The notes below the pieces were generated by a model. That model had not been told where the DNA came from and did no database searches. It saw nothing but the letters and a program-made list of their open reading frames with translations. 64,000 bases of DNA from Escherichia coli (lineage in GTDB: Bacteria; Pseudomonadota; Gammaproteobacteria; Enterobacterales; Enterobacteriaceae): NCBI RefSeq assembly GCF_001677475.2, contig NZ_CP015229.1; one strand, 5' to 3'. The position numbers and the translations under genes were made by a program. Positions 3,375 to 17,281 of the stretch are shown here, in pieces. How positions within the stretch are numbered: position 1 is the stretch's first letter; every line of letters begins with the position of its first letter.

Positions 3375-5921
3375 TTGTACCTCTATATTGAGACTCTGAA
3401 ACAGAGACTGGATGCCATAAATCAATTGCGTGTGGATCGCGCGCTTGCTGCTATGGGGCCTGCATTCCAACAGGTCTACAGTCTACTGCCGACATTGTTG
3501 CACTATCACCATCCGCTAATGCCGGGTTACCTTGATGGTAACGTTCCCAAAGGCATTTGCCTTTACACGCCTGATGAAACTCAACGCCACTACCTGAACG
3601 AGCTTGAACTGTATCGTGGAATGTCAGTACAGGACCCACCGAAAGGTGAGCTTCCAATTACTGGTGTATACACCATGGGCAGCACCTCGTCCGTAGGGCA
3701 AAGTTGTTCCTCTGACCTGGATATTTGGGTCTGTCATCAATCCTGGCTCGATAGCGAAGAGCGCCAGTTACTACAACGTAAATGCAGCTTGCTGGAAAGC
3801 TGGGCCGCCTCGCTGGGTGTGGAAGTCAGCTTCTTCCTGATTGATGAAAACCGCTTCCGTCATAATGAAAGCGGCAGCCTGGGGGGTGAAGATTGTGGCT
3901 CCACCCAGCATATACTGCTGCTTGACGAATTTTATCGTACCGCCGTGCGTCTCGCCGGTAAGCGTATTCTGTGGAATATGGTGCCGTGCGACGAAGAAGA
4001 GCATTACGACGACTATGTGATGACGCTTTACGCGCAGGGCGTGCTGACGCCAAATGAATGGCTGGATCTCGGTGGCTTAAGCTCGCTTTCTGCTGAAGAG
4101 TACTTTGGTGCCAGCCTTTGGCAGCTCTACAAAAGTATCGATTCTCCATACAAAGCGGTGCTGAAAACACTGCTGCTGGAAGCCTATTCCTGGGAATACC
4201 CGAACCCACGTTTGCTGGCGAAAGATATCAAACAGCGTTTGCACGACGGCGAGATTGTATCGTTTGGTCTCGATCCGTACTGCATGATGCTGGAGCGTGT
4301 TACTGAATACCTGACGGCGATTGAAGATTTTACCCGTCTGGATTTAGTACGTCGCTGCTTCTATTTAAAAGTGTGCGAAAAACTCAGCCGTGAACGCGCT
4401 TGCGTAGGCTGGCGTCGCGCAGTGTTGAGCCAGTTAGTGAGCGAGTGGGGTTGGGACGAAGCTCGTCTGACAATGCTCGATAACCGCGCTAACTGGAAGA
4501 TTGATCAGGTGCGTGAGGCGCACAACGAGTTGCTCGACGCGATGATGCAGAGCTACCGTAATCTGATCCGCTTTGCGCGTCGCAATAACCTTAGCGTCTC
4601 CGCCAGCCCGCAGGATATTGGCGTACTGACGCGTAAACTGTATGCCGCGTTTGAAGCGTTACCGGGTAAAGTGACGCTGGTAAACCCGCAGATTTCGCCC
4701 GATCTCTCGGAACCGAACCTGACCTTTATTTATGTGCCGCCGGGCCGGGCTAACCGTTCCGGTTGGTATCTGTATAACCGCGCGCCAAACATTGAGTCGA
4801 TCATCAGCCATCAGCCGCTGGAATATAACCGTTACCTGAATAAACTGGTGGCGTGGGCATGGTTTAACGGCCTGCTGACCTCGCGTACCCGTTTGTATAT
4901 TAAAGGTAACGGCATTGTCGATTTGCCTAAGTTGCAGGAGATGGTCGCCGATGTGTCACACCATTTCCCGCTGCGCCTGCCTGCACCGACGCCAAAAGCG
5001 CTCTACAGCCCGTGTGAAATTCGCCATCTGGCGATTATCGTTAACCTGGAATATGACCCGACAGCTGCGTTCCGCAATCAGGTGGTGCATTTTGATTTCC
5101 GTAAGCTGGATGTCTTCAGCTTTGGCGAGAATCAAAATTGCCTGGTAGGTAGCGTTGACCTGCTGTACCGCAACTCGTGGAACGAAGTGCGTACGCTGCA
5201 CTTTAACGGCGAGCAATCGATGATCGAAGCCCTGAAAACCATTCTCGGCAAAATGCATCAGGATGCCGCACCGCCAGATAGCGTGGAAGTCTTCTGTTAT
5301 AGCCAGCATCTGCGCGGGTTAATCCGTACTCGCGTGCAGCAACTGGTTTCTGAGTGTATTGAATTGCGTCTTTCCAGCACCCGCCAGGAAACCGGGCGTT
5401 TCAAGGCGCTGCGCGTTTCTGGTCAAACCTGGGGCTTGTTCTTCGAACGCCTGAATGTATCGGTACAGAAACTGGAAAACGCCATCGAGTTTTATGGCGC
5501 TATTTCGCATAACAAACTACACGGCCTGTCAGTGCAGGTTGAAACCAATCACGTCAAATTACCGGCGGTGGTGGACGGCTTTGCCAGCGAAGGGATCATC
5601 CAGTTCTTCTTCGAAGAAACGCATGACGAGAATGGCTTTAATATTTACATTCTCGACGAAAGCAACCGGGTTGAGGTGTATCACCACTGCGAAGGCAGCA
5701 AAGAGGAGCTGGTGCGTGACGTCAGTCGCTTCTACTCGTCATCGCACGACCGTTTTACCTACGGCTCAAGCTTCATCAACTTCAACCTGCCGCAGTTCTA
5801 TCAGATTGTGAAGGTTGATGGTCGTGAACAGGTGATTCCGTTCCGCACCAAATCGATTGGCAACATGCCGCCTGCCAATCAGGATCACGACACGCCGCTA
5901 TTACAGCAGTATTTTTCGTGA
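3375..5921 (+). CDS. cyaA: Adenylate cyclase (class I)
   Basis: 848-aa ORF with TTG start; N-terminus [31 protein letters not shown] matches CyaA. Confidence 0.95.
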
Positions 5922-9405: not shown

Positions 9406-10121
9406 TGCGTTTTTACCGGCCTTTGGGGCGCATCTCGGCGCTCACCTTTGACCTGGATGATACCCTTTACGATAACCGTCCGGTGATTTTGCGCACCGAG
9501 CGAGAGGCGCTTACCTTTGTGCAAAATTATCATCCGGCGCTGCGCAGCTTCCAGAATGAAGATCTGCAACGCCTGCGCCAGGCGGTACGGGAAGCGGAAC
9601 CCGAGATTTATCACGACGTGACGCGCTGGCGTTTTCGTTCGATTGAACAAGCCATGCTCGACGCCGGGCTGAGTGCCGAAGAAGCCAGTGCAGGCGCACA
9701 CGCAGCAATGATCAACTTTGCCAAATGGCGCAGCCGAATCGATGTCCCGCAGCAAACCCACGACACCTTAAAACAGCTGGCGAAGAAATGGCCGCTGGTG
9801 GCGATCACCAACGGTAACGCCCAGCCGGAGCTGTTTGGTTTAGGGGATTATTTTGAGTTTGTGTTGCGCGCTGGCCCGCACGGGCGCTCAAAACCGTTCA
9901 GCGATATGTACTTCCTGGCGGCGGAAAAACTCAACGTGCCGATCGGCGAGATCTTACATGTCGGGGACGATCTCACCACTGACGTGGGTGGGGCAATTCG
10001 CAGCGGAATGCAGGCCTGTTGGATCAGACCGGAAAATGGCGATCTGATGCAAACCTGGGACAGCCGTTTACTCCCGCATCTGGAAATTTCCCGGTTGGCA
10101 TCTCTGACCTCGCTGATATAA
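9405..10121 (+). CDS. yigB: HAD-family FMN/5-amino-6-(5-phospho-D-ribitylamino)uracil phosphatase YigB
   Basis: 238-aa ORF with HAD motif FDLDDTLYD. Confidence 0.85.
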
Positions 10122-10130
10122 TCAGCAAAT

Positions 10131-10146
10131 CTGTATATATACCCAG
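10131..10146 (+). promoter_or_regulatory. LexA (SOS) box of uvrD promoter
   Basis: CTGTATATATACCCAG matches CTGT-N8-ACAG consensus ~60 bp upstream of uvrD start. Confidence 0.7.
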
Positions 10147-10204
10147 CTTTTTGGCGGAGGGCGTTGCGCTTCTCCGCCCAACCTATTTTTACGCGGCGGT
10201 GCCA

Positions 10205-12367
10205 ATGGACGTTTCTTACCTGCTCGACAGCCTTAATGACAAACAGCGCGAAGCGGTGGCCGCGCCACGCAGCAACCTTCTGGTGCTGGCGGGCGCGGGC
10301 AGTGGTAAGACGCGCGTACTGGTGCATCGTATCGCCTGGCTGATGAGCGTGGAAAACTGCTCGCCATACTCGATTATGGCGGTAACGTTTACCAACAAAG
10401 CGGCGGCAGAGATGCGTCATCGTATTGGGCAGCTGATGGGCACCAGCCAGGGCGGCATGTGGGTCGGCACCTTCCACGGGCTGGCGCACCGTCTGCTGCG
10501 TGCGCACCATATGGACGCCAATCTGCCGCAGGATTTTCAGATCCTCGACAGCGAGGACCAGCTACGCCTGCTCAAACGCCTAATCAAGGCGATGAACCTC
10601 GACGAGAAGCAGTGGCCGCCGCGCCAGGCAATGTGGTACATCAACAGCCAGAAAGATGAAGGCCTGCGTCCACATCATATTCAAAGCTACGGTAATCCGG
10701 TGGAGCAGACCTGGCAGAAGGTGTATCAGGCGTATCAGGAAGCGTGTGACCGCGCGGGCCTGGTGGACTTCGCCGAGCTGCTGCTACGTGCTCACGAGTT
10801 GTGGCTTAACAAGCCGCATATCCTTCAGCACTATCGCGAACGGTTTACCAATATCCTGGTGGACGAATTCCAGGATACCAACAACATTCAATACGCGTGG
10901 ATCCGCCTGCTGGCGGGCGATACCGGCAAAGTGATGATCGTTGGCGATGACGATCAGTCAATCTACGGCTGGCGCGGAGCGCAGGTGGAGAATATTCAGC
11001 GTTTCCTCAATGATTTCCCCGGTGCTGAAACTATCCGTCTGGAGCAGAACTACCGCTCTACCAGCAATATTCTGAGCGCCGCGAACGCCCTGATTGAAAA
11101 CAACAACGGGCGTTTGGGTAAAAAACTGTGGACCGATGGCGCGGACGGTGAGCCTATTTCCCTCTATTGCGCTTTTAACGAACTCGACGAAGCGCGTTTT
11201 GTGGTTAACCGTATCAAGACCTGGCAGGACAACGGTGGGGCGCTTGCCGAGTGCGCCATTCTCTACCGCAGCAACGCCCAGTCGCGTGTACTGGAAGAGG
11301 CCTTATTACAGGCGAGTATGCCGTACCGTATTTACGGCGGGATGCGCTTCTTCGAACGCCAGGAAATCAAAGATGCGCTCTCGTATCTGCGCCTGATTGC
11401 CAACCGTAACGACGACGCGGCCTTTGAGCGTGTGGTGAATACGCCAACGCGGGGTATTGGTGACCGGACGCTGGACGTGGTACGTCAGACATCGCGCGAT
11501 CGCCAGTTAACACTCTGGCAGGCATGTCGTGAACTGTTGCAGGAAAAAGCCCTCGCCGGACGTGCTGCCAGTGCCTTGCAACGGTTTATGGAACTGATCG
11601 ACGCCTTAGCGCAGGAAACTGCCGATATGCCGCTGCATGTACAGACTGACCGGGTCATTAAAGACTCCGGCCTGCGCACCATGTACGAGCAGGAGAAGGG
11701 CGAAAAAGGCCAGACGCGTATCGAAAACTTAGAGGAACTGGTGACGGCGACGCGCCAGTTCAGCTACAACGAAGAAGACGAAGATTTAATGCCGCTGCAG
11801 GCGTTCCTCTCCCATGCGGCACTGGAAGCAGGTGAAGGGCAGGCGGATACCTGGCAGGATGCGGTGCAGTTGATGACGCTACACTCGGCGAAAGGTCTGG
11901 AGTTCCCGCAGGTGTTTATCGTCGGTATGGAAGAGGGCATGTTCCCAAGCCAGATGTCGCTGGATGAAGGCGGACGTCTGGAAGAAGAACGCCGTCTGGC
12001 CTACGTTGGCGTAACCCGCGCGATGCAGAAACTGACGCTGACCTACGCGGAAACCCGCCGTCTGTATGGCAAAGAAGTTTACCATCGCCCGTCGCGCTTT
12101 ATCGGCGAGCTGCCGGAAGAGTGTGTGGAAGAGGTGCGCCTGCGCGCCACGGTAAGCCGCCCGGTCAGCCATCAACGGATGGGTACGCCGATGGTCGAGA
12201 ACGACAGCGGCTACAAGCTCGGCCAGCGCGTACGCCACGCTAAGTTTGGTGAAGGCACCATCGTCAATATGGAAGGCAGTGGCGAGCATAGCCGTTTGCA
12301 GGTGGCATTCCAGGGCCAGGGTATTAAATGGCTGGTGGCGGCTTACGCCCGGTTGGAGACGGTGTGA
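10205..12367 (+). CDS. uvrD: DNA helicase II (UvrD)
   Basis: ORF 10019-12367; start at internal Met (MDVSYLLDSLNDKQREAVAAP...) gives 720 aa; Walker A GAGSGKT. Confidence 0.95.
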   Translation: MDVSYLLDSLNDKQREAVAAPRSNLLVLAGAGSGKTRVLVHRIAWLMSVENCSPYSIMAVTFTNKAAAEMRHRIGQLMGTSQGGMWVGTFHGLAHRLLRAHHMDANLPQDFQILDSEDQLRLLKRLIKAMNLDEKQWPPRQAMWYINSQKDEGLRPHHIQSYGNPVEQTWQKVYQAYQEACDRAGLVDFAELLLRAHELWLNKPHILQHYRERFTNILVDEFQDTNNIQYAWIRLLAGDTGKVMIVGDDDQSIYGWRGAQVENIQRFLNDFPGAETIRLEQNYRSTSNILSAANALIENNNGRLGKKLWTDGADGEPISLYCAFNELDEARFVVNRIKTWQDNGGALAECAILYRSNAQSRVLEEALLQASMPYRIYGGMRFFERQEIKDALSYLRLIANRNDDAAFERVVNTPTRGIGDRTLDVVRQTSRDRQLTLWQACRELLQEKALAGRAASALQRFMELIDALAQETADMPLHVQTDRVIKDSGLRTMYEQEKGEKGQTRIENLEELVTATRQFSYNEEDEDLMPLQAFLSHAALEAGEGQADTWQDAVQLMTLHSAKGLEFPQVFIVGMEEGMFPSQMSLDEGGRLEEERRLAYVGVTRAMQKLTLTYAETRRLYGKEVYHRPSRFIGELPEECVEEVRLRATVSRPVSHQRMGTPMVENDSGYKLGQRVRHAKFGEGTIVNMEGSGEHSRLQVAFQGQGIKWLVAAYARLETV

Positions 12368-12371
12368 CGTT

Positions 12372-12402
12372 GCGGAATGCGGTGCGCCACACCGCATTCC
12401 GC
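12372..12402. terminator. Perfect 13-bp inverted repeat (GCGGAATGCGGTG-N5-CACCGCATTCCGC) between convergent uvrD and DUF62 gene
   Basis: Direct reading; strong GC stem, no flanking U-tract. Confidence 0.4.
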
Positions 12403-12411
12403 ATCAGCACC

Positions 12412-13314
12412 TTACTTAGCGCACTTCTTCACATCAATATTCCAGTTAGCACCAGACGCAACCTGATGTTTCTGCGCGAAATTAGCCATATTCAGCGCCA
12501 CGGAAACATTCAATAAGCTGTTCAGATACACCATCGGCTGTCCTTCCGGCACATCGCCGAAGCTTGCGACATACGGCATTTTCCCTGCGTATTTTTGCTG
12601 GGAACCTTCGGAAATGGTCACACACAACGTGTCGTTGAGTTTGATTCCTGCCTGATTCAGCAACTCGTCGCTGATATTGCTCCAGACGTTGCCGTACTGA
12701 ATATCGAGAATCGGGATATTGCCCTTCACTTCACCTTTTGTTGCTTTTGCTTTCTGATAAGAAAGTTCGACAACTTTTGCAGGAAGCTCTGGCCCCACCT
12801 GTTCGAACGTAATCGCCCCGGAAGCCAGACGCGCCCCTGTGTAGGCATATACATCGCGACCATGGAAGGTATATGACTTTTCGGAACCTTTCAGGCGGTT
12901 GGTTTTTTCATCGATTTGCCGGACGCTCTCAATACCCAGCGATTCCGCCACCAAAGTGAGCGTACCGTTATCCGGTGAAACGAAGTATTGACCGTTTTTG
13001 GTTTTCAGCACTACCGATTTACGGTCAGTGCCTACGCCCGGATCGACCACACTGACAAATACCGAACCTTGCGGCCAGTAGCTGGCTGTCTGATACAGGC
13101 GGTAAGCGCCTTCCCAGATGTTATACGGTGGAATTTCGTGTGTTAAATCAAATATTTTAAGATTATGGTCAACACCGAATGCGACCCCTTTCATCGCCGA
13201 GACGGCACCATCTTTCAGGCTAAAATCAGTTTGTAAAATCAAAGCGTTATCCGCATAAGCGGATGATGATCCCAGACACGTTAATAAAAATAACGTTGCG
13301 AGCGTTTTTTTCAT
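12412..13314 (-). CDS. Secreted DUF62 / SAM hydroxide adenosyltransferase (fluorinase/chlorinase)-family protein
   Basis: 300-aa ORF; N-terminal signal peptide MKKTLATLFLLTCLGSSSAYA; family-like motifs LQTDFSLKDGAVSAMKGV and ILDIQYGNVWSNI. Confidence 0.75.
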   Translation of the reverse strand: MKKTLATLFLLTCLGSSSAYADNALILQTDFSLKDGAVSAMKGVAFGVDHNLKIFDLTHEIPPYNIWEGAYRLYQTASYWPQGSVFVSVVDPGVGTDRKSVVLKTKNGQYFVSPDNGTLTLVAESLGIESVRQIDEKTNRLKGSEKSYTFHGRDVYAYTGARLASGAITFEQVGPELPAKVVELSYQKAKATKGEVKGNIPILDIQYGNVWSNISDELLNQAGIKLNDTLCVTISEGSQQKYAGKMPYVASFGDVPEGQPMVYLNSLLNVSVALNMANFAQKHQVASGANWNIDVKKCAK

Positions 13315-13396
13315 TTTTGTTTCCCTTCATTTATCTGATAATTTTCCAGCTGTGTAGCCAGCCCCAGTTTGTCTGGCCTCCTCGAGTGTACAATGC

Positions 13397-14161
13397 TTAA
13401 CCTTTCCGCTCGACGGAAATCATGGTAACAAAAGGATAGCGTTGCCACGGGATTGCCCCGCCTTTCATATACATATGTGAAATCGTGCCATCAAGATAAA
13501 GCAGCTGCTCAACGTTCAGTTTCGCTTTGGCATAACAGGCAAAATCATAAAAATTTGTCGCCTGCTGGCTCAACAAAAACACGGCGCTCCCTTGTTTATT
13601 AATCCCAACACCGTTACGAATTTTACGTGAGGCGACGTTGGGATGAATACGCGGATTAATTACGCCGTTTTCCATCAACATTGGCCCTGACTGCACCGCA
13701 AACTGAATCTCTTTACTGGTTTTGAAGGCATCCAGACGAACGATGCCGACTTTATCTCCCGCGACATAAAACACGCCGCCAGGACGGATAAAGAAATTCC
13801 CTTCACCTGAAGCGAGATTTAACGCCACCTTCTGCTGACCGTTTTCGATGTACAAACCGAGCGGCGCATAGCTTTCATCATAGATGCCGCCGTTCATCGC
13901 CATCTGCACCTGACCCTGACTATTCATATCCGCCAGCAGAGCATGTAACGTTCCCCACGCTTCGGCATTGGCTTTTTGCCAGTACATTTTCACCCGCTCT
14001 GTTTGAGGATTAACGGTATACGCCTGTACGGTCAGCGCCGGATCTGAGAGTGCGCAATCATCAGCGGCAACAGCAAACAAGGGAAGTAAGGTGAGGGCGA
14101 GAAAAATCCGTTTGAGATTCAAGGTGATCATTCCTTTACCAATGAGTAGCCGATGCGCCAT
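13397..14161 (-). CDS. yigE: DUF2233 periplasmic protein YigE
   Basis: 254-aa ORF with signal peptide, upstream of corA as in K-12. Confidence 0.75.
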   Translation of the reverse strand: MAHRLLIGKGMITLNLKRIFLALTLLPLFAVAADDCALSDPALTVQAYTVNPQTERVKMYWQKANAEAWGTLHALLADMNSQGQVQMAMNGGIYDESYAPLGLYIENGQQKVALNLASGEGNFFIRPGGVFYVAGDKVGIVRLDAFKTSKEIQFAVQSGPMLMENGVINPRIHPNVASRKIRNGVGINKQGSAVFLLSQQATNFYDFACYAKAKLNVEQLLYLDGTISHMYMKGGAIPWQRYPFVTMISVERKG

Positions 14162-14530
14162 TATAGGTCCTGGATGTGGGATTTTTTTATCCTGTTAGCG
14201 ACCTTGACGAGTACCAAAAAGCGCGAAGTTCAACTATTGTTCTGTGGTGTTCTGTTGCGTGTTGACGGCAAAATTTTGCTGGCGTAACATGCGCGCACGA
14301 TCACTCTAAGAGGACATTCGCCTTGGACACACCCAGTAGATACTGGCTCACTATCCTGTCATCCAGGATCAACTCCTAAGGCTATCCCTTTTTGCTGATA
14401 GCCTTAGCGGTTGTCAGCGACCTCAATTTTTCCCGTCGCGCTGAGTCAGGCTGTTTAATGGTCTGAAACCCAATTTGTTTCTGTGTGCCCACCGAACTGT
14501 CCGATATTTTAAGCATTGGGAGTCCCGGTC

Positions 14531-15481
14531 ATGCTGAGCGCATTTCAACTGGAAAATAACCGACTGACCCGGCTGGAAGTCGAAGAGTCACAACCCCTTG
14601 TAAATGCAGTATGGATTGATCTTGTCGAACCGGACGACGACGAGCGACTGCGCGTACAATCTGAACTTGGTCAGAGCCTGGCAACCCGCCCGGAACTGGA
14701 AGACATCGAAGCATCGGCACGTTTCTTTGAAGACGATGACGGCCTGCATATTCACTCCTTCTTCTTCTTTGAAGATGCGGAAGATCACGCCGGTAACTCC
14801 ACTGTGGCATTTACCATCCGTGATGGTCGTCTGTTTACTCTGCGTGAGCGTGAACTGCCTGCATTCCGTCTGTATCGTATGCGTGCCCGTAGCCAGTCGA
14901 TGGTAGACGGTAATGCCTACGAGCTGCTGCTGGATCTGTTCGAAACCAAAATCGAACAGTTGGCAGATGAAATTGAAAATATCTATAGCGACCTGGAGCA
15001 GTTGAGCCGGGTGATTATGGAAGGGCATCAGGGCGATGAGTACGACGAGGCGCTCTCCACGCTGGCGGAACTGGAAGATATCGGCTGGAAAGTTCGCCTG
15101 TGTCTGATGGATACCCAGCGCGCGCTCAACTTCCTGGTACGTAAAGCACGCTTACCGGGTGGGCAACTGGAGCAGGCGCGTGAAATCCTGCGAGATATCG
15201 AATCCCTGCTGCCGCATAACGAATCCCTGTTCCAGAAGGTGAACTTCCTGATGCAGGCGGCGATGGGCTTTATCAACATCGAGCAGAACCGCATCATCAA
15301 AATCTTCTCGGTGGTATCCGTCGTGTTCCTGCCGCCGACGCTGGTCGCTTCCAGCTATGGGATGAACTTTGAGTTTATGCCGGAACTGAAGTGGAGTTTC
15401 GGCTACCCTGGCGCGATTATCTTTATGATCCTCGCGGGCCTGGCACCGTATCTGTACTTTAAGCGCAAGAACTGGTTGTAA
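14531..15481 (+). CDS. corA: Magnesium/cobalt transporter CorA
   Basis: ORF 14516-15481; start at [12 protein letters not shown] gives 316 aa; YGMNF signature. Confidence 0.95.
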
Positions 15482-15488
15482 AAATAAG

Positions 15489-15518
15489 GCGGTGGCTTAG
15501 CCTGGCTAAGCCACCTGT
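15489..15518. terminator. Bidirectional rho-independent terminator between corA and yigF
   Basis: Hairpin GGTGGCTTAG-CCTGG-CTAAGCCACC with T-rich flanks on both strands. Confidence 0.55.
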
Positions 15519-15521
15519 TAT

Positions 15522-15902
15522 TCAAAGGCTCCAGGTATTTAACCCTTTTACCTCTTTCTCATAAAACCATTTGTTCGTGTTAACAGCAACATAGGCTGCT
15601 ACGGCAATTCCCAGAATGTTAACGCCAATTAGTGCACCAACAAATAGAGATAGAATGCCAAGTAATAGAACTATAATTGCTTTTTTCCATAATCCTAGAA
15701 CAAATAAATAGATCCAGGAACAGAAGAAAGCAATGAAATTCATTTGAATAGTTAATCGTTGTCTTACTTTTAATGTTTTAAATGCTGCTTTATATTCTGG
15801 TGTTGCCCCCCAGAATCCAGGAAAGCCATGTTGATCATAAAAATTAAATCGGTATTTCCATTTTTCACTTAATGAACCATCGTTCATATATTCCTTACTC
15901 AT
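15522..15902 (-). CDS. yigF: DUF2628 inner-membrane protein YigF
   Basis: ORF 15522-15944, start at internal Met for 126 aa; AT-rich. Confidence 0.75.
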   Translation of the reverse strand: MSKEYMNDGSLSEKWKYRFNFYDQHGFPGFWGATPEYKAAFKTLKVRQRLTIQMNFIAFFCSWIYLFVLGLWKKAIIVLLLGILSLFVGALIGVNILGIAVAAYVAVNTNKWFYEKEVKGLNTWSL

Positions 15903-15915
15903 AAATACACCATAA

Positions 15916-16296
15916 CTATTGTTTTGATGAATCAGTAGGTGCAAGCATTAGCATACTGAAAGTGGAAAAATAACAAATCAAAAAAATCATCGAACCATTG
16001 CCTGAACAATCAAAATGTTCGGCTATCATTGTGATGATAGAGATGATATATACTGCTAATGTACCAAAAACATAAGTTTTTATATATATGAAACCACTAT
16101 CACGGAGTCGTTGGCAATTCATGTTGATGACGAGATAATGGAGTGCGATGGTAGAGACAATAACAAGAAAACCTGCGTCCCCATCGTTAAAAAAGATAAT
16201 AAGAAAGGCAAAAATGAAATTTATTAAAATAAATGAAAATATATAACGACGTCTGGAAATCTTACCGTTAGATGTTGGGATAAATATACGCAACAT
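15916..16296 (-). CDS. yigG: DUF805-like inner-membrane protein YigG
   Basis: ORF 15916-16356, start at internal Met for 126 aa; AT-rich. Confidence 0.7.
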
Positions 16297-16390
16297 AAAT
16301 TTTACATCCTTGTGTGAGTCTCCTGTCAGCATGGCAATATGCCCACTCTCATGCAAGAGTCGGCATATTTTTTCAGAATATATTTATTTT

Positions 16391-17281
16391 TTATTTGGAC
16401 GTTCTACGCTGCGTATAAATCGCATCCATCACAAAAATTGCCAGCGCCACCCAAATAAAGGCGAAAGTCACCATCTTATCGGCACCCGGTTTTTCACCAT
16501 AAAACGTCACAGCCAGCAGGAACATCAGTGTCGGGCCAATGTACTGGAAAAAGCCTAACGTTGAGAGACGCAGGCGTGTCGCAGCTGCAGTAAAACACAA
16601 CAGCGGTACGGTAGTGACAATACCGGCAGCGATCAGCAGTAAATTCAGCGATATCGGGTTTTGCCCCATATGGCTGGTTGCGCTGTCGGCAATAGCAAAC
16701 AGGTAAATCGCCGCCACGGGCAGCAACCACATGGTTTCGATTAACATGCCGGTTTGCGCTTCAACGGCAATCTTCTTTCGTACCAGGCCGTAGAAGGCAA
16801 AACTAAACGCCAGCCCCAGCGCGATGATCGGCAGTGAACCAAAAGTCCACAACTGAACCAACACGCCACATATCGCCAGAATCACCGCCAGCCATTGCAT
16901 CCGGCGGAATCGCTCGCCGAGGAAAATCATCCCCAGCACAATGTTCACCAGCGGATTAATAAAGTAACCAAGGCTTGCTTCCAGCATATGGTGATTGTTC
17001 ACCGCCCAGATAAACAGTAGCCAGTTGCCACCAATCAGCACGGCAGAGACTGCCAGCATAAAAATTTTCTGTGGCGTCCGAATCAGCGTTTTTAAATAGG
17101 ACCACTGGCGGCAAATGCTCATCAGCACCACCATAAAGAAAAACGACCAGATCACGCGATGCGTCAGGATCTCATCGGCGGGCACGTAGTAAATCAGCTT
17201 GAAGTACGCTGGCGCAATACCCCAAATAAAATAAGCGGCAAGAGCGAGTAATACGCCCTGCCGCGTTTGTTTTGCATCCAT
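16391..17281 (-). CDS. rarD: EamA/DMT-family transporter RarD
   Basis: 296-aa polytopic membrane ORF. Confidence 0.9.
   Translation of the reverse strand: MDAKQTRQGVLLALAAYFIWGIAPAYFKLIYYVPADEILTHRVIWSFFFMVVLMSICRQWSYLKTLIRTPQKIFMLAVSAVLIGGNWLLFIWAVNNHHMLEASLGYFINPLVNIVLGMIFLGERFRRMQWLAVILAICGVLVQLWTFGSLPIIALGLAFSFAFYGLVRKKIAVEAQTGMLIETMWLLPVAAIYLFAIADSATSHMGQNPISLNLLLIAAGIVTTVPLLCFTAAATRLRLSTLGFFQYIGPTLMFLLAVTFYGEKPGADKMVTFAFIWVALAIFVMDAIYTQRRTSK

What the first reader, a model, noticed from the sequence alone, without database searches (positions are those of the whole stretch)
12412..13314. Single-gene insertion between uvrD and yigE encoding a signal-peptide-bearing DUF62 (SAM hydroxide adenosyltransferase/halogenase-family) protein
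The uvrD-to-corA interval here is ~2.16 kb and holds two minus-strand genes, whereas my recollection of K-12 is a ~1.3 kb interval holding only yigE. The extra 300-aa ORF shows hallmark DUF62/COG1912 motifs (TDFSLKDGAVSAMKGV; ILDIQYGNVWSNI), the family of SAM-cleaving fluorinase/chlorinase/SAM hydroxide adenosyltransferases. Unusually, it carries a clear Sec signal peptide (MKKTLATLFLLTCLGSSSAYA|DN), implying export to the periplasm, where SAM is not normally available. That points to a different substrate (another adenosyl or nucleoside compound) or an extracytoplasmic role. It follows yigE on the same strand with an 82-bp spacer.
Basis: partly seen in the sequence, partly recalled or inferred. 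Interest (0 to 1): 0.6.

Follow-up and report, generated by a model that had tools for sequence, protein, structure and literature searches.

The report
Exported SAM-hydrolase-family enzyme, variably present
This is a real, selectively maintained gene for a hydrolase-type member of the SAM-cleaving DUF62 family that, unlike every characterised member, carries an export signal. It belongs to a large, apparently undescribed exported branch of the family, is present in about 44% of complete E. coli genomes, and has its closest outside relative in Helicobacter pylori.

Summary
A 300-aa ORF lies at 12412-13314 (-) between uvrD and yigE, 82 bp downstream of yigE, and K-12 lacks it.

It is a firm DUF62 member: PF01887 at 5e-53, PF20257 at 7e-18, and an AlphaFold model (pLDDT 94.7) matching every solved DUF62, SalL and fluorinase structure. 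It keeps the Asp-Arg-His water-activating triad (D91/R98/H151) that marks the hydrolases and is missing from the halogenases. It scores below the curated cut-offs for the named (R)-SAM hydrolase and fluorinase equivalogs.

The signal peptide is not a quirk of this gene. About 79 of 81 close homologues from more than 10 phyla have one, some as lipoproteins. The proteobacterial subclade also has a perfectly co-occurring Cys pair.

"Insertion" is imprecise. E. coli is dimorphic at this site: 2413 complete genomes carry the gene and 3012 carry a REP-containing junction. Both alleles also occur in divergent Escherichia lineages.

The nearest non-Escherichia relative is H. pylori HP0709 (86% aa identity), which points to an old cross-phylum transfer. 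No conserved gene partner was found.

The most likely role is periplasmic cleavage of exogenous SAM, or a close adenosyl analogue, to adenosine plus methionine. This is inferred, not shown. Interest is moderate.

The parts
12412..13314 (-). CDS of the 300-aa exported DUF62 / SAM hydroxide adenosyltransferase-family protein (orthologue of E. coli O157 Sakai ECs_4744 and H. pylori HP0709)
   Evidence: ORF; Pfam; annotated CDS in 2413 E. coli genomes; dN/dS 0.03-0.12
13252..13314 (-). Codons 1-21, predicted Sec (SPase I) signal peptide MKKTLATLFLLTCLGSSSAYA, with predicted cleavage before Asp22
   Evidence: n-h-c heuristic with A-Y-A at -3..-1. Equivalent N-terminal hydrophobic extensions occur in about 79 of 81 clade homologues. 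pLDDT is 57-60 for residues 1-20 against more than 90 from residue 21 on. Solved cytoplasmic homologues begin at query residues 24-28.
12793..13239 (-). N-terminal domain (residues 26-174, PF01887). It holds ribose-binding Asp30, the Asp91-Arg98-His151 triad and the P114-D-N-G117 motif.
   Evidence: alignment to PH0463 D68/R75/H127; invariance within the clade
12442..12723 (-). C-terminal beta domain (residues 198-291, PF20257) with the L-D204-I-Q-Y-G-N209 motif. Cys231 lies here and Cys298 just beyond it.
   Evidence: Cys231 and Cys298 co-occur in 35 of 35 sequences, with none discordant among 77.
13322..13328 (-). Shine-Dalgarno-like GAAGGGA, 7 nt upstream of the ATG
   Evidence: Read directly from the sequence
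13315..13396 (-). 82-bp spacer between yigE and the DUF62 gene. It has no consensus promoter or terminator and no significant RNA structure, which is compatible with co-transcription from yigE.
   Evidence: no site in the spacer; z = -0.84
13397..14161 (-). yigE, encoding a signal-peptide-bearing phosphodiester glycosidase family (PF09992 NAGPA/DUF2233) protein. It is the upstream neighbour on the same strand.
   Evidence: It is next to the DUF62 gene only in Escherichia.
12371..12403 (.). Perfect 14-bp hairpin between the convergent stop codons of uvrD and the DUF62 gene. Its left arm is homologous to the REP element of the K-12 gene-less allele.
   Evidence: dG -30.8 kcal/mol, z -5.9; alignment to K-12
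10205..12367 (+). uvrD, the conserved left flank of the dimorphic segment
14531..15481 (+). corA, the conserved right-hand landmark

Best explanation
The gene encodes a hydrolase-type DUF62 enzyme (SAM hydroxide adenosyltransferase chemistry). The enzyme is made with a cleavable Sec signal peptide and works in the periplasm. There an Asp91-Arg98-His151 triad activates water for SN2 attack on C5' of an adenosyl-sulfonium compound. The most likely substrate is exogenous S-adenosylmethionine that has diffused through porins, and the products are adenosine and L-methionine, which existing nucleoside and methionine transporters can import. On this reading it is a stand-alone scavenging or clean-up enzyme of an exported branch of the family. 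It is not part of a biosynthetic cluster and is not a halogenase.

Shown here:
- family and fold membership;
- conservation of the catalytic triad;
- conservation of the signal peptide across the clade;
- purifying selection.

Inferred, not shown:
- actual export;
- SAM as the physiological substrate;
- the salvage role.
For: Family, fold and catalytic residues:
- PF01887 at 4.8e-53 and PF20257 at 6.7e-18.
- Best PDB sequence hits are DUF62 hydrolases, SalL and fluorinases.
- The AF2 model has pLDDT 94.7. Foldseek TM-scores normalised to the target are 0.80-0.91 against all 40 solved chains of the family.
- PH0463 D68/R75/H127 align with D91/R98/H151. SalL has Tyr/Thr/Tyr at those positions. 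The literature states the triad is present only in the hydrolases (PMC10491745; PMC4859513).
- D30, D91, R98, N116, D204 and N209 are invariant and H151 is kept in 72 of 77 clade members.

Export:
- Signal-like N-termini, 5 of them with lipoboxes, occur in about 79 of 81 homologues. These come from Proteobacteria, Bacteroidota, Verrucomicrobiota, Synergistota, Thermotogota, Fusobacteriota, Planctomycetota and Firmicutes.
- Of the 150 nearest 50%-identity cluster representatives, 61 have signal-like N-termini and 47 have cytoplasmic-type N-termini.
- Residues 1-20 have low pLDDT.
- The Cys231/Cys298 pair is perfectly co-conserved in the proteobacterial subclade, as expected for a periplasmic disulfide.

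Literature on the H. pylori orthologue HP0709:
- It was detected in an outer-membrane-vesicle proteome (PMC8756444).
- It is seroreactive in patients (PMC11394471).
- It was induced 2.9-fold in biofilm, in the same list as the methionine transporter gene metI (PMC6212823).

Selection: dN/dS is 0.03-0.12.

From my own knowledge: E. coli has no SAM importer, and H. pylori needs external methionine and purines. Splitting SAM outside the inner membrane would make both halves usable.
Against: - No activity or localisation data exist for any exported member.
- SignalP could not be run.
- The protein scores far below the curated cut-offs of the (R)-SAM hydrolase equivalogs (132 vs 350 bits and 115 vs 470 bits), so substrate identity cannot be transferred from them.
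- No transporter or salvage gene is consistently adjacent.
- The outer-membrane-vesicle list also contains ribosomal proteins, and the serology list also contains RecA, so both are weak evidence of export.
- The Cys pair arose once in the tree, so its co-occurrence is a single evolutionary event.
- How much free SAM is available in the gut or environment is unknown to me.
Confidence: 0.42

Rival explanations
1. The exported enzyme uses the same SN2-at-C5' chemistry, but its physiological substrate is a different extracytoplasmic 5'-substituted adenosine rather than SAM. Candidates are decarboxylated SAM, 5'-halo-5'-deoxyadenosines, and sulfonium or sulfamoyl nucleoside toxins made by competitors. 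The role would then be detoxification or specialised scavenging.
For: - The clade is separate from the characterised hydrolases and fails their curated cut-offs.
- It has many clade-specific invariant residues, for example W67, R72, W80, R132, R140, S144, S147, W211 and W291.
- Five Synergistota members replace the triad His with Phe, which hints at variation in the chemistry.
- Family enzymes are known to act on 5'-chloro-5'-deoxyadenosine, as in the SalL structures listed.
Against: - Every residue I could map to adenosine binding or water activation is unchanged.
- Asp35 is invariant. From memory, it aligns with fluorinase Asp21, which contacts the methionine amino group, so the amino-acid end of SAM may still be recognised.
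- No biosynthetic or resistance context points to a particular toxin.
Confidence: 0.25
2. The hydrophobic N-terminus is not a working export signal. The protein would then be a cytoplasmic (R,S)-SAM repair hydrolase like StDUF62 or MJ1651.
For: - All characterised DUF62 hydrolases are cytoplasmic (PMC12120602; bioRxiv 10.1101/2025.08.29.672840).
- A TTG codon at Leu25 could in principle start a cytoplasmic form (sequence).
Against: - The n-h-c layout with AXA is conserved across phyla although its sequence is not, and lipobox variants exist.
- The extension ends exactly where the cytoplasmic homologues begin.
- A co-conserved Cys pair is present.
- There is no Shine-Dalgarno sequence before the TTG.
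Confidence: 0.08
3. The gene works with its upstream neighbour yigE, a periplasmic phosphodiester glycosidase family protein, as a two-enzyme periplasmic pathway. This is not exclusive of the explanations above.
For: - The two genes are on the same strand, 82 bp apart, with no promoter or terminator consensus in the spacer and no structured spacer.
- Both carry signal peptides.
- They have similar GC content, 47.6% and 48.5%, against 57.7% for uvrD.
Against: - yigE is kept alone in the 3012 gene-less genomes.
- In Klebsiella, yigE sits at another locus without a DUF62 gene.
- None of the non-Escherichia DUF62 loci showed a yigE-like neighbour.
Confidence: 0.1
4. The protein is a SAM-dependent halogenase (chlorinase or fluorinase), as some automatic annotations such as 'adenosyl-chloride synthase, salL' suggest.
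For: - It shares the fold and 29-30% identity with SalL.
- Annotation labels in H. pylori papers use this name.
Against: - It has the Asp-Arg-His triad that halogenases lack. SalL has Tyr, Thr and Tyr at those three positions.
- The fluorinase model TIGR04507 scores 87 bits against a cut-off of 400.
- There is no halometabolite gene cluster nearby.
Confidence: 0.02

Closest known systems
SAM hydroxide adenosyltransferase / DUF62 hydrolases (PH0463 of Pyrococcus horikoshii, PDB 1WU8/2WR8; Thermotoga maritima 2ZBU; MJ1651, 2F4N)
   Same: - Two-domain architecture PF01887 + PF20257.
- Same fold, with target-normalised TM-scores of 0.86-0.91.
- Asp-Arg-His triad, ribose-binding Asp, and the PxNG and DxxF/YGN motifs.
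- 30-34% identity.
   Different: - It carries a cleavable signal peptide, and in Proteobacteria a conserved Cys pair. The known enzymes start directly at the first beta-strand and are cytoplasmic.
- It forms a separate clade that is 55-75% identical within itself across phyla.
(R)-S-adenosyl-L-methionine hydrolases (StDUF62, SaciSAMH, HvSAMH, MJ1651; NCBIfam NF058624 and NF053629)
   Same: Same family and the same catalytic triad. Hydrolysis to adenosine plus methionine is the expected chemistry.
   Different: - It scores 132 and 115 bits against curated cut-offs of 350 and 470.
- The proposed role of those enzymes, removing the inactive sulfonium epimer from the cytoplasmic SAM pool, makes no sense for a periplasmic enzyme.
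- Stereoselectivity here is unknown.
SAM-dependent halogenases SalL (chlorinase) and FlA (fluorinase)
   Same: Same fold, adenosine-binding residues and SN2 displacement at C5'.
   Different: - Halogenases lack the triad, whereas this protein has it.
- The fluorinase model scores 87 bits against a cut-off of 400.
- The gene is not in a natural-product cluster.
Helicobacter pylori HP0709 (UniProt O25413)
   Same: It is the orthologue: 86% amino-acid identity over the full length, including the signal peptide layout and both cysteines.
   Different: - It sits in a different genomic context, rsmH - small ORF - HP0709 - homA.
- It is uncharacterised, and known only from GWAS, vesicle-proteome, serology and transcriptome lists.

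Membership tests
DUF62 / SAM hydroxide adenosyltransferase family (PF01887 + PF20257) | Significant match to the N-terminal domain profile PF01887 | tested here: met
   i-Evalue 4.8e-53, residues 26-174, model positions 2-145 of 145
DUF62 / SAM hydroxide adenosyltransferase family (PF01887 + PF20257) | Significant match to the C-terminal domain profile PF20257 | tested here: met
   i-Evalue 6.7e-18, residues 198-291
DUF62 / SAM hydroxide adenosyltransferase family (PF01887 + PF20257) | Two-domain fold of the solved members | tested here: met
   AF2 model with pLDDT 94.7 and pTM 0.89. The 40 best Foldseek hits are all family members, with E-values from 1e-31 to 7e-18 and target-normalised TM-scores of 0.80-0.91.
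DUF62 / SAM hydroxide adenosyltransferase family (PF01887 + PF20257) | Ribose-binding Asp (FlA D16) and the motifs PxNGL and IDxxFGN | tested here: met
   D30 is invariant. The motifs appear as P114-D-N-G-T and L-D204-I-Q-Y-G-N209, which are conservative variants (L to T, F to Y). Motif definitions come from PMC4859513 and conservation.
Hydrolase (hydroxide-transferring) subgroup of DUF62 | Asp-Arg-His triad (PH0463 D68, R75, H127) that activates water | tested here: met
   The residue-by-residue alignment to 1WU8/2WR8 places the triad at D91, R98 and H151. D91 and R98 are kept in 77 of 77 clade members and H151 in 72 of 77.
Hydrolase (hydroxide-transferring) subgroup of DUF62 | Catalyses SAM + H2O to adenosine + L-methionine | not testable with these tools
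   Needs an enzyme assay
Hydrolase (hydroxide-transferring) subgroup of DUF62 | Homotrimer with active sites at the subunit interfaces | not tested
   Only a monomer was modelled
(R)-SAM hydrolase equivalogs (NCBIfam NF058624, NF053629) | Whole-protein score above the curated cut-off | tested here: not met
   132.3 bits against a cut-off of 350, and 114.6 against 470
Fluorinase (TIGR04507) and SalL-type halogenases | Score above the curated cut-off, and halide-binding residues in place of the triad | tested here: not met
   87.2 bits against a cut-off of 400. SalL has Y/T/Y where this protein has D91/R98/H151.
Sec-dependent secretory protein (SPase I signal peptide) | Positively charged n-region, hydrophobic h-region of 8 or more residues, small residues at -3 and -1 | tested here: met
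   MKK / TLATLFLLTCLG / SSSAYA|D by my own heuristic. The pattern is conserved in about 79 of 81 homologues. SignalP was not available.
Sec-dependent secretory protein (SPase I signal peptide) | Demonstrated export and cleavage | not testable with these tools
   Needs a fusion assay, cell fractionation or N-terminal mass spectrometry
Bacterial lipoprotein (SPase II) | Lipobox [LVI][ASTVI][GAS]C | tested here: not met
   The E. coli sequence has L-L-T-C, with Thr at -1, and this Cys is absent from the H. pylori orthologue. Five other clade members do have a lipobox.

The most novel reading that the evidence does not exclude
The DUF62 family has a large extracytoplasmic branch of periplasmic, lipoprotein and secreted forms, spread across more than 10 bacterial phyla. 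I could find no description of it in the searchable literature. This branch would give bacteria a way to split external SAM, or a related adenosyl-sulfonium compound, into importable adenosine and methionine. One member passed between an Escherichia-like gammaproteobacterium and the Helicobacter pylori lineage. H. pylori needs both methionine and purines from outside, and a variant of this gene (HP0709) has been associated with gastric cancer risk.
Probability: 0.35. Interest if true: 0.6.

Novelty: new variant of a known kind. Interest (0 to 1): 0.45.

Why it matters
The physiological purpose of DUF62 hydrolases is still debated. PMC12120602 questions the (R,S)-SAM repair role.

A well-conserved exported branch cannot serve cytoplasmic SAM quality control. 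It is therefore a clean test case for a second function of the family, such as extracellular SAM or adenosyl-compound salvage or detoxification.

E. coli offers natural gene-plus and gene-minus strains at one defined locus. The orthologue HP0709 sits in a pathogen that is auxotrophic for both products, which makes the hypothesis cheap to test.

There is also an annotation point. The gene is still labelled 'acetolactate synthase' or 'adenosyl-chloride synthase' in many records, and both labels are wrong.

Tried and rejected
- **Conserved neighbours.** I made crude gene calls in 80 loci, clustered all neighbours and ran Pfam on 41 putative operon partners. No partner recurs outside a genus. One apparent shared cluster was an antisense-ORF artefact in GC-rich genomes.
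- **Domain fusions as functional hints**. Partners are heterogeneous: Y_phosphatase3 plus a second SAM_HAT_C in Fervidobacterium, Peptidase_M15, and alpha/beta hydrolases. They gave no coherent clue.
- **Defence-system and phage family searches**. No hits.
- **Promoter and terminator scan, and folding of the 82-bp spacer**. Nothing above background.
- **Literature.** I searched for DUF62 with 'signal peptide', 'SAM hydrolase' with 'periplasm', PF01887/COG1912, and locus tags and accessions. There was nothing on exported members and nothing at all on the E. coli gene. The two key family papers, PMC7736106 and PMC2692205, are not held, so I cannot exclude a remark in them.
- **Simple "insertion" or "recent K-12 deletion".** Both are rejected because both alleles occur in divergent Escherichia lineages. 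No remnant of the gene is left in the K-12 allele.
- **Disulfide geometry.** This could not be checked because model coordinates are not returned.
Full report
**1. What is in the sequence**

A 300-codon ORF lies on the minus strand at 12412-13314. Its ATG is the first start codon after the upstream stop, and GAAGGGA lies 7 nt upstream of it. The ORF sits 82 bp downstream of yigE (13397-14161, same strand). Its stop codon is convergent with that of uvrD (stop at 12367). A perfect 14-bp hairpin at 12371-12403 lies between the two stop codons (dG -30.8 kcal/mol, z = -5.9).

K-12 MG1655 has only 146 bp between uvrD and yigE. That stretch is filled by REP-type repeats and holds no gene.

**2. It is a real, constrained gene**

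- Pfam gives SAM_HAT_N (PF01887, 4.8e-53, residues 26-174) and SAM_HAT_C (PF20257, 6.7e-18, residues 198-291).
- Between Escherichia alleles dN/dS is 0.03-0.12, with dS up to 0.37.
- Against H. pylori, codon-position identities are 88%, 95% and 57%.
- RefSeq already annotates the gene as "SAM hydrolase/SAM-dependent halogenase family protein". Older records call it "acetolactate synthase" (Sakai ECs_4744; Shigella and H. pylori), which the profile results do not support.

**3. Which kind of DUF62**

All PDB sequence hits are family members: T. maritima 2ZBU at 7e-44, plus SalL, MJ1651, PH0463 and fluorinases. An AlphaFold model built on a 60-sequence alignment has mean pLDDT 94.7 and pTM 0.89. 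It matches all 40 solved chains of the family with target-normalised TM-scores of 0.80-0.91.

The residue-level alignment to PH0463 places its catalytic D68, R75 and H127 on D91, R98 and H151. SalL has Tyr, Thr and Tyr at those positions. The literature states that this His-Arg-Asp triad occurs only in the hydrolases and activates the nucleophilic water (PMC10491745; PMC4859513).

Across 77 full-length clade members, D30 (ribose-binding Asp), D91, R98, N116, D204 and N209 are invariant, and H151 is kept in 72. The protein is therefore hydrolase-type and not a halogenase. It nevertheless fails the curated cut-offs of the two (R)-SAM hydrolase equivalogs (132 vs 350 bits and 115 vs 470 bits) and of fluorinase (87 vs 400 bits). 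I file it in the family but not in any characterised subfamily.

**4. The signal peptide**

The N-terminus is MKK / TLATLFLLTCLG / SSSAYA | DN. It has a basic n-region, a hydrophobic core and A-x-A before the predicted cleavage site. Solved cytoplasmic homologues begin at query residues 24-28, so cleavage would leave a canonical domain. Residues 1-20 have pLDDT 57-60, against more than 90 from residue 21 on. The sequence does not fit a lipobox.

The strongest argument is comparative. Of 81 sequences (80 loci from one genome per species, plus the window), about 79 have a signal-like N-terminal extension before the conserved xLVxQTDFG start. The sequence of that extension is not conserved. Five have lipoboxes. 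These loci come from Aeromonas, Pasteurellaceae, Edwardsiella, Thorsellia, Neisseriales, Chitinophagaceae, Verrucomicrobiota, Synergistota, Thermotogota, Fusobacteriota, Planctomycetota and Tissierellia.

Among the 150 nearest representatives of 50%-identity clusters, 61 are signal-bearing (10 with lipoboxes) and 47 have a short cytoplasmic-type N-terminus.

In the proteobacterial subclade, Cys231 and Cys298 are either both present (35 sequences) or both absent (42), with none discordant. That fits a periplasmic disulfide, although it traces to a single origin. SignalP and experiments are still needed.

**5. Population and evolutionary picture**

E. coli is cleanly dimorphic at this site. The gene is in 2413 of 5426 complete genomes. 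A K-12-type REP junction is in 3012. One copy is a frameshifted pseudogene. Homology between the two alleles is lost between the REP-like hairpin just after uvrD and the stop codon of yigE, and the K-12 allele keeps no remnant of the gene.

The gene has diverged about as much as its flanks. It is 95-98% identical among E. coli lineages and 92-94% identical to two cryptic Escherichia lineages that share the same synteny. The REP-type gene-less allele is also found in a divergent Escherichia contig, with uvrD 92.5% and yigE 86.9% identical to the window. Both alleles are therefore old, and calling this a "single-gene insertion" in this strain is not accurate. Polarity is unresolved.

At a deeper level the gene must have been gained laterally by Escherichia. 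In the one-genome-per-species scan, the only other Enterobacterales loci among the 80 kept were Edwardsiella, Thorsellia and one MAG. yigE itself is an ordinary enterobacterial gene. In Klebsiella it sits at another locus, without a DUF62 neighbour.

**6. An unexpected relative**

After Escherichia and Shigella, the next closest proteins are from Helicobacter pylori and H. acinonychis, at 87-88% by BLASTP. The full-length figures are 86% amino-acid and 80% nucleotide identity. The next group, Aeromonas, is at about 74%.

The H. pylori gene lies between rsmH and a 664-aa ORF downstream. I take that ORF to be homA. A published primer named for jhp0648/HP0709 (TAATTTCGCGCAAAAACATC) encodes NFAQKH, which is in both proteins. 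The gene is therefore HP0709.

In a neighbour-joining tree, E. coli and H. pylori form a pair inside a gammaproteobacterial/Neisseriales clade, next to Edwardsiella. The H. pylori gene has 42.5% GC against 37% for its surroundings, and synonymous sites are largely randomised. This points to an old transfer into the H. pylori lineage from an Escherichia-like donor.

HP0709 is uncharacterised. It appears in several data sets:
- as a gastric-cancer GWAS hit, D49N (PMC6090961);
- in an outer-membrane-vesicle proteome (PMC8756444);
- as a seroreactive antigen (PMC11394471);
- as biofilm-induced, in the same list as metI (PMC6212823).

**7. Function**

I found no conserved neighbour, no informative fusion, and no link to defence systems or phages. 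The 82-bp spacer to yigE has no promoter or terminator consensus and no structure. Co-transcription with yigE is possible, but the pairing is specific to Escherichia.

The best-supported mechanism is as follows. The protein is exported by Sec and cleaved after Ala21. It then folds in the periplasm, probably as a trimer and with a disulfide in Proteobacteria. The triad-activated water displaces the sulfonium leaving group at C5' of exogenous SAM, giving adenosine and methionine for uptake.

From my own knowledge, E. coli cannot import SAM, and H. pylori is auxotrophic for methionine and lacks de novo purine synthesis. That makes such an enzyme useful.

The main rival keeps the chemistry but changes the substrate to another extracellular 5'-substituted adenosine. 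The clade-specific invariant residues leave room for this. I put about 0.42 on the SAM-salvage model, 0.25 on a different substrate, 0.08 on a cytoplasmic location and 0.02 on halogenation.

**8. Novelty and score**

The family, the fold and the chemistry are known, and the gene is already annotated at family level in thousands of genomes. Three things appear to be undescribed in the literature I could search. Two key family papers could not be read.
- the existence and breadth of an exported branch;
- the old dimorphism at uvrD-yigE;
- the link between E. coli and H. pylori.

I rate this a new variant of a known kind, of moderate interest (0.45). It gives a cheap, direct test of what DUF62 hydrolases are for, but nothing here overturns current understanding.

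Noticed in passing
L005:4814-5710 (H. pylori SA213A) compared with window 12412-13314: H. pylori HP0709 is the closest non-Escherichia relative of the window gene: 86% aa and 80% nt identity, with third-codon-position identity 57%. It nests inside a gammaproteobacterial clade, and its GC is 42.5% against 37% for its locus. This points to an old cross-phylum gene transfer. HP0709 is a gastric-cancer GWAS hit (PMC6090961).
   Followed up: partly
L088 (metagenome Escherichia contig) compared with L001:5146-5293 (K-12) and L003/L004: The gene-less REP-type junction of K-12 also occurs in a divergent Escherichia lineage (uvrD 92.5% and yigE 86.9% identical to the window). The gene-bearing allele occurs in two cryptic Escherichia lineages. 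The presence/absence polymorphism therefore predates E. coli diversification or is exchanged between lineages. Polarity is unresolved.
   Followed up: partly
window 12371-12403: A perfect 14-bp hairpin (dG -30.8 kcal/mol, z -5.9) lies between the convergent uvrD and DUF62 stop codons, with no U-tract. Its left arm aligns with the first REP of the K-12 allele, so it looks like a REP derivative rather than a classical terminator.
   Followed up: partly
L064 and L071 (Fervidobacterium MAGs), match from position 5001: These are 620-640-aa secreted fusion proteins: DUF62 N and C domains, then a second SAM_HAT_C domain, then a Y_phosphatase3 (HCxxGxxR) tyrosine-phosphatase-family domain. Other long homologues carry Peptidase_M15 or alpha/beta-hydrolase domains.
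   Followed up: partly
L040, L052, L055, L058, L061 (Synergistota / Dethiosulfovibrio): These five exported homologues have Phe in place of the triad His151 but keep Asp91 and Arg98. They may be catalytically altered.
   Followed up: no
L085:3001-3858 (E. coli HS-02): This is the only partial match among the 2413 gene-bearing complete E. coli genomes. It is annotated as a frameshifted pseudogene with an internal stop.
   Followed up: no
L083:33975-34877 (Sakai ECs_4744), and Shigella and H. pylori entries: A legacy annotation, 'acetolactate synthase', persists for this gene in several records, and 'adenosyl-chloride synthase / salL' is used in H. pylori papers. Neither fits the profile and catalytic-residue evidence.
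   Followed up: yes
window 15522-16356 compared with L002:7112-8448, L083:37086-38422 and L084:7106-8448: Downstream of corA, the window and K-12 have yigF-yigG. E. coli C, Sakai and Nissle carry two extra genes there (DUF943 family and YPO3983 family), and E. coli C also has a corA fragment. This is a second variable spot in the same neighbourhood.
   Followed up: no
window 10000-16400: No complete RefSeq E. coli genome is more than 98.4% identical over these 6.4 kb, and uvrD is only about 96% identical to K-12, Sakai and E. coli C. The source lineage seems not to be represented in that collection. It may be a Shigella or an unusual Escherichia lineage.
   Followed up: no
window 13397-14161 (yigE): YigE (PF09992, the family of the mammalian GlcNAc-1-phosphodiester 'uncovering enzyme') also has a signal peptide if translation starts at Met11, and has no assigned function. 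In Klebsiella its homologue sits next to a GCS2-family gene and an RND efflux pump, not next to uvrD.
   Followed up: partly
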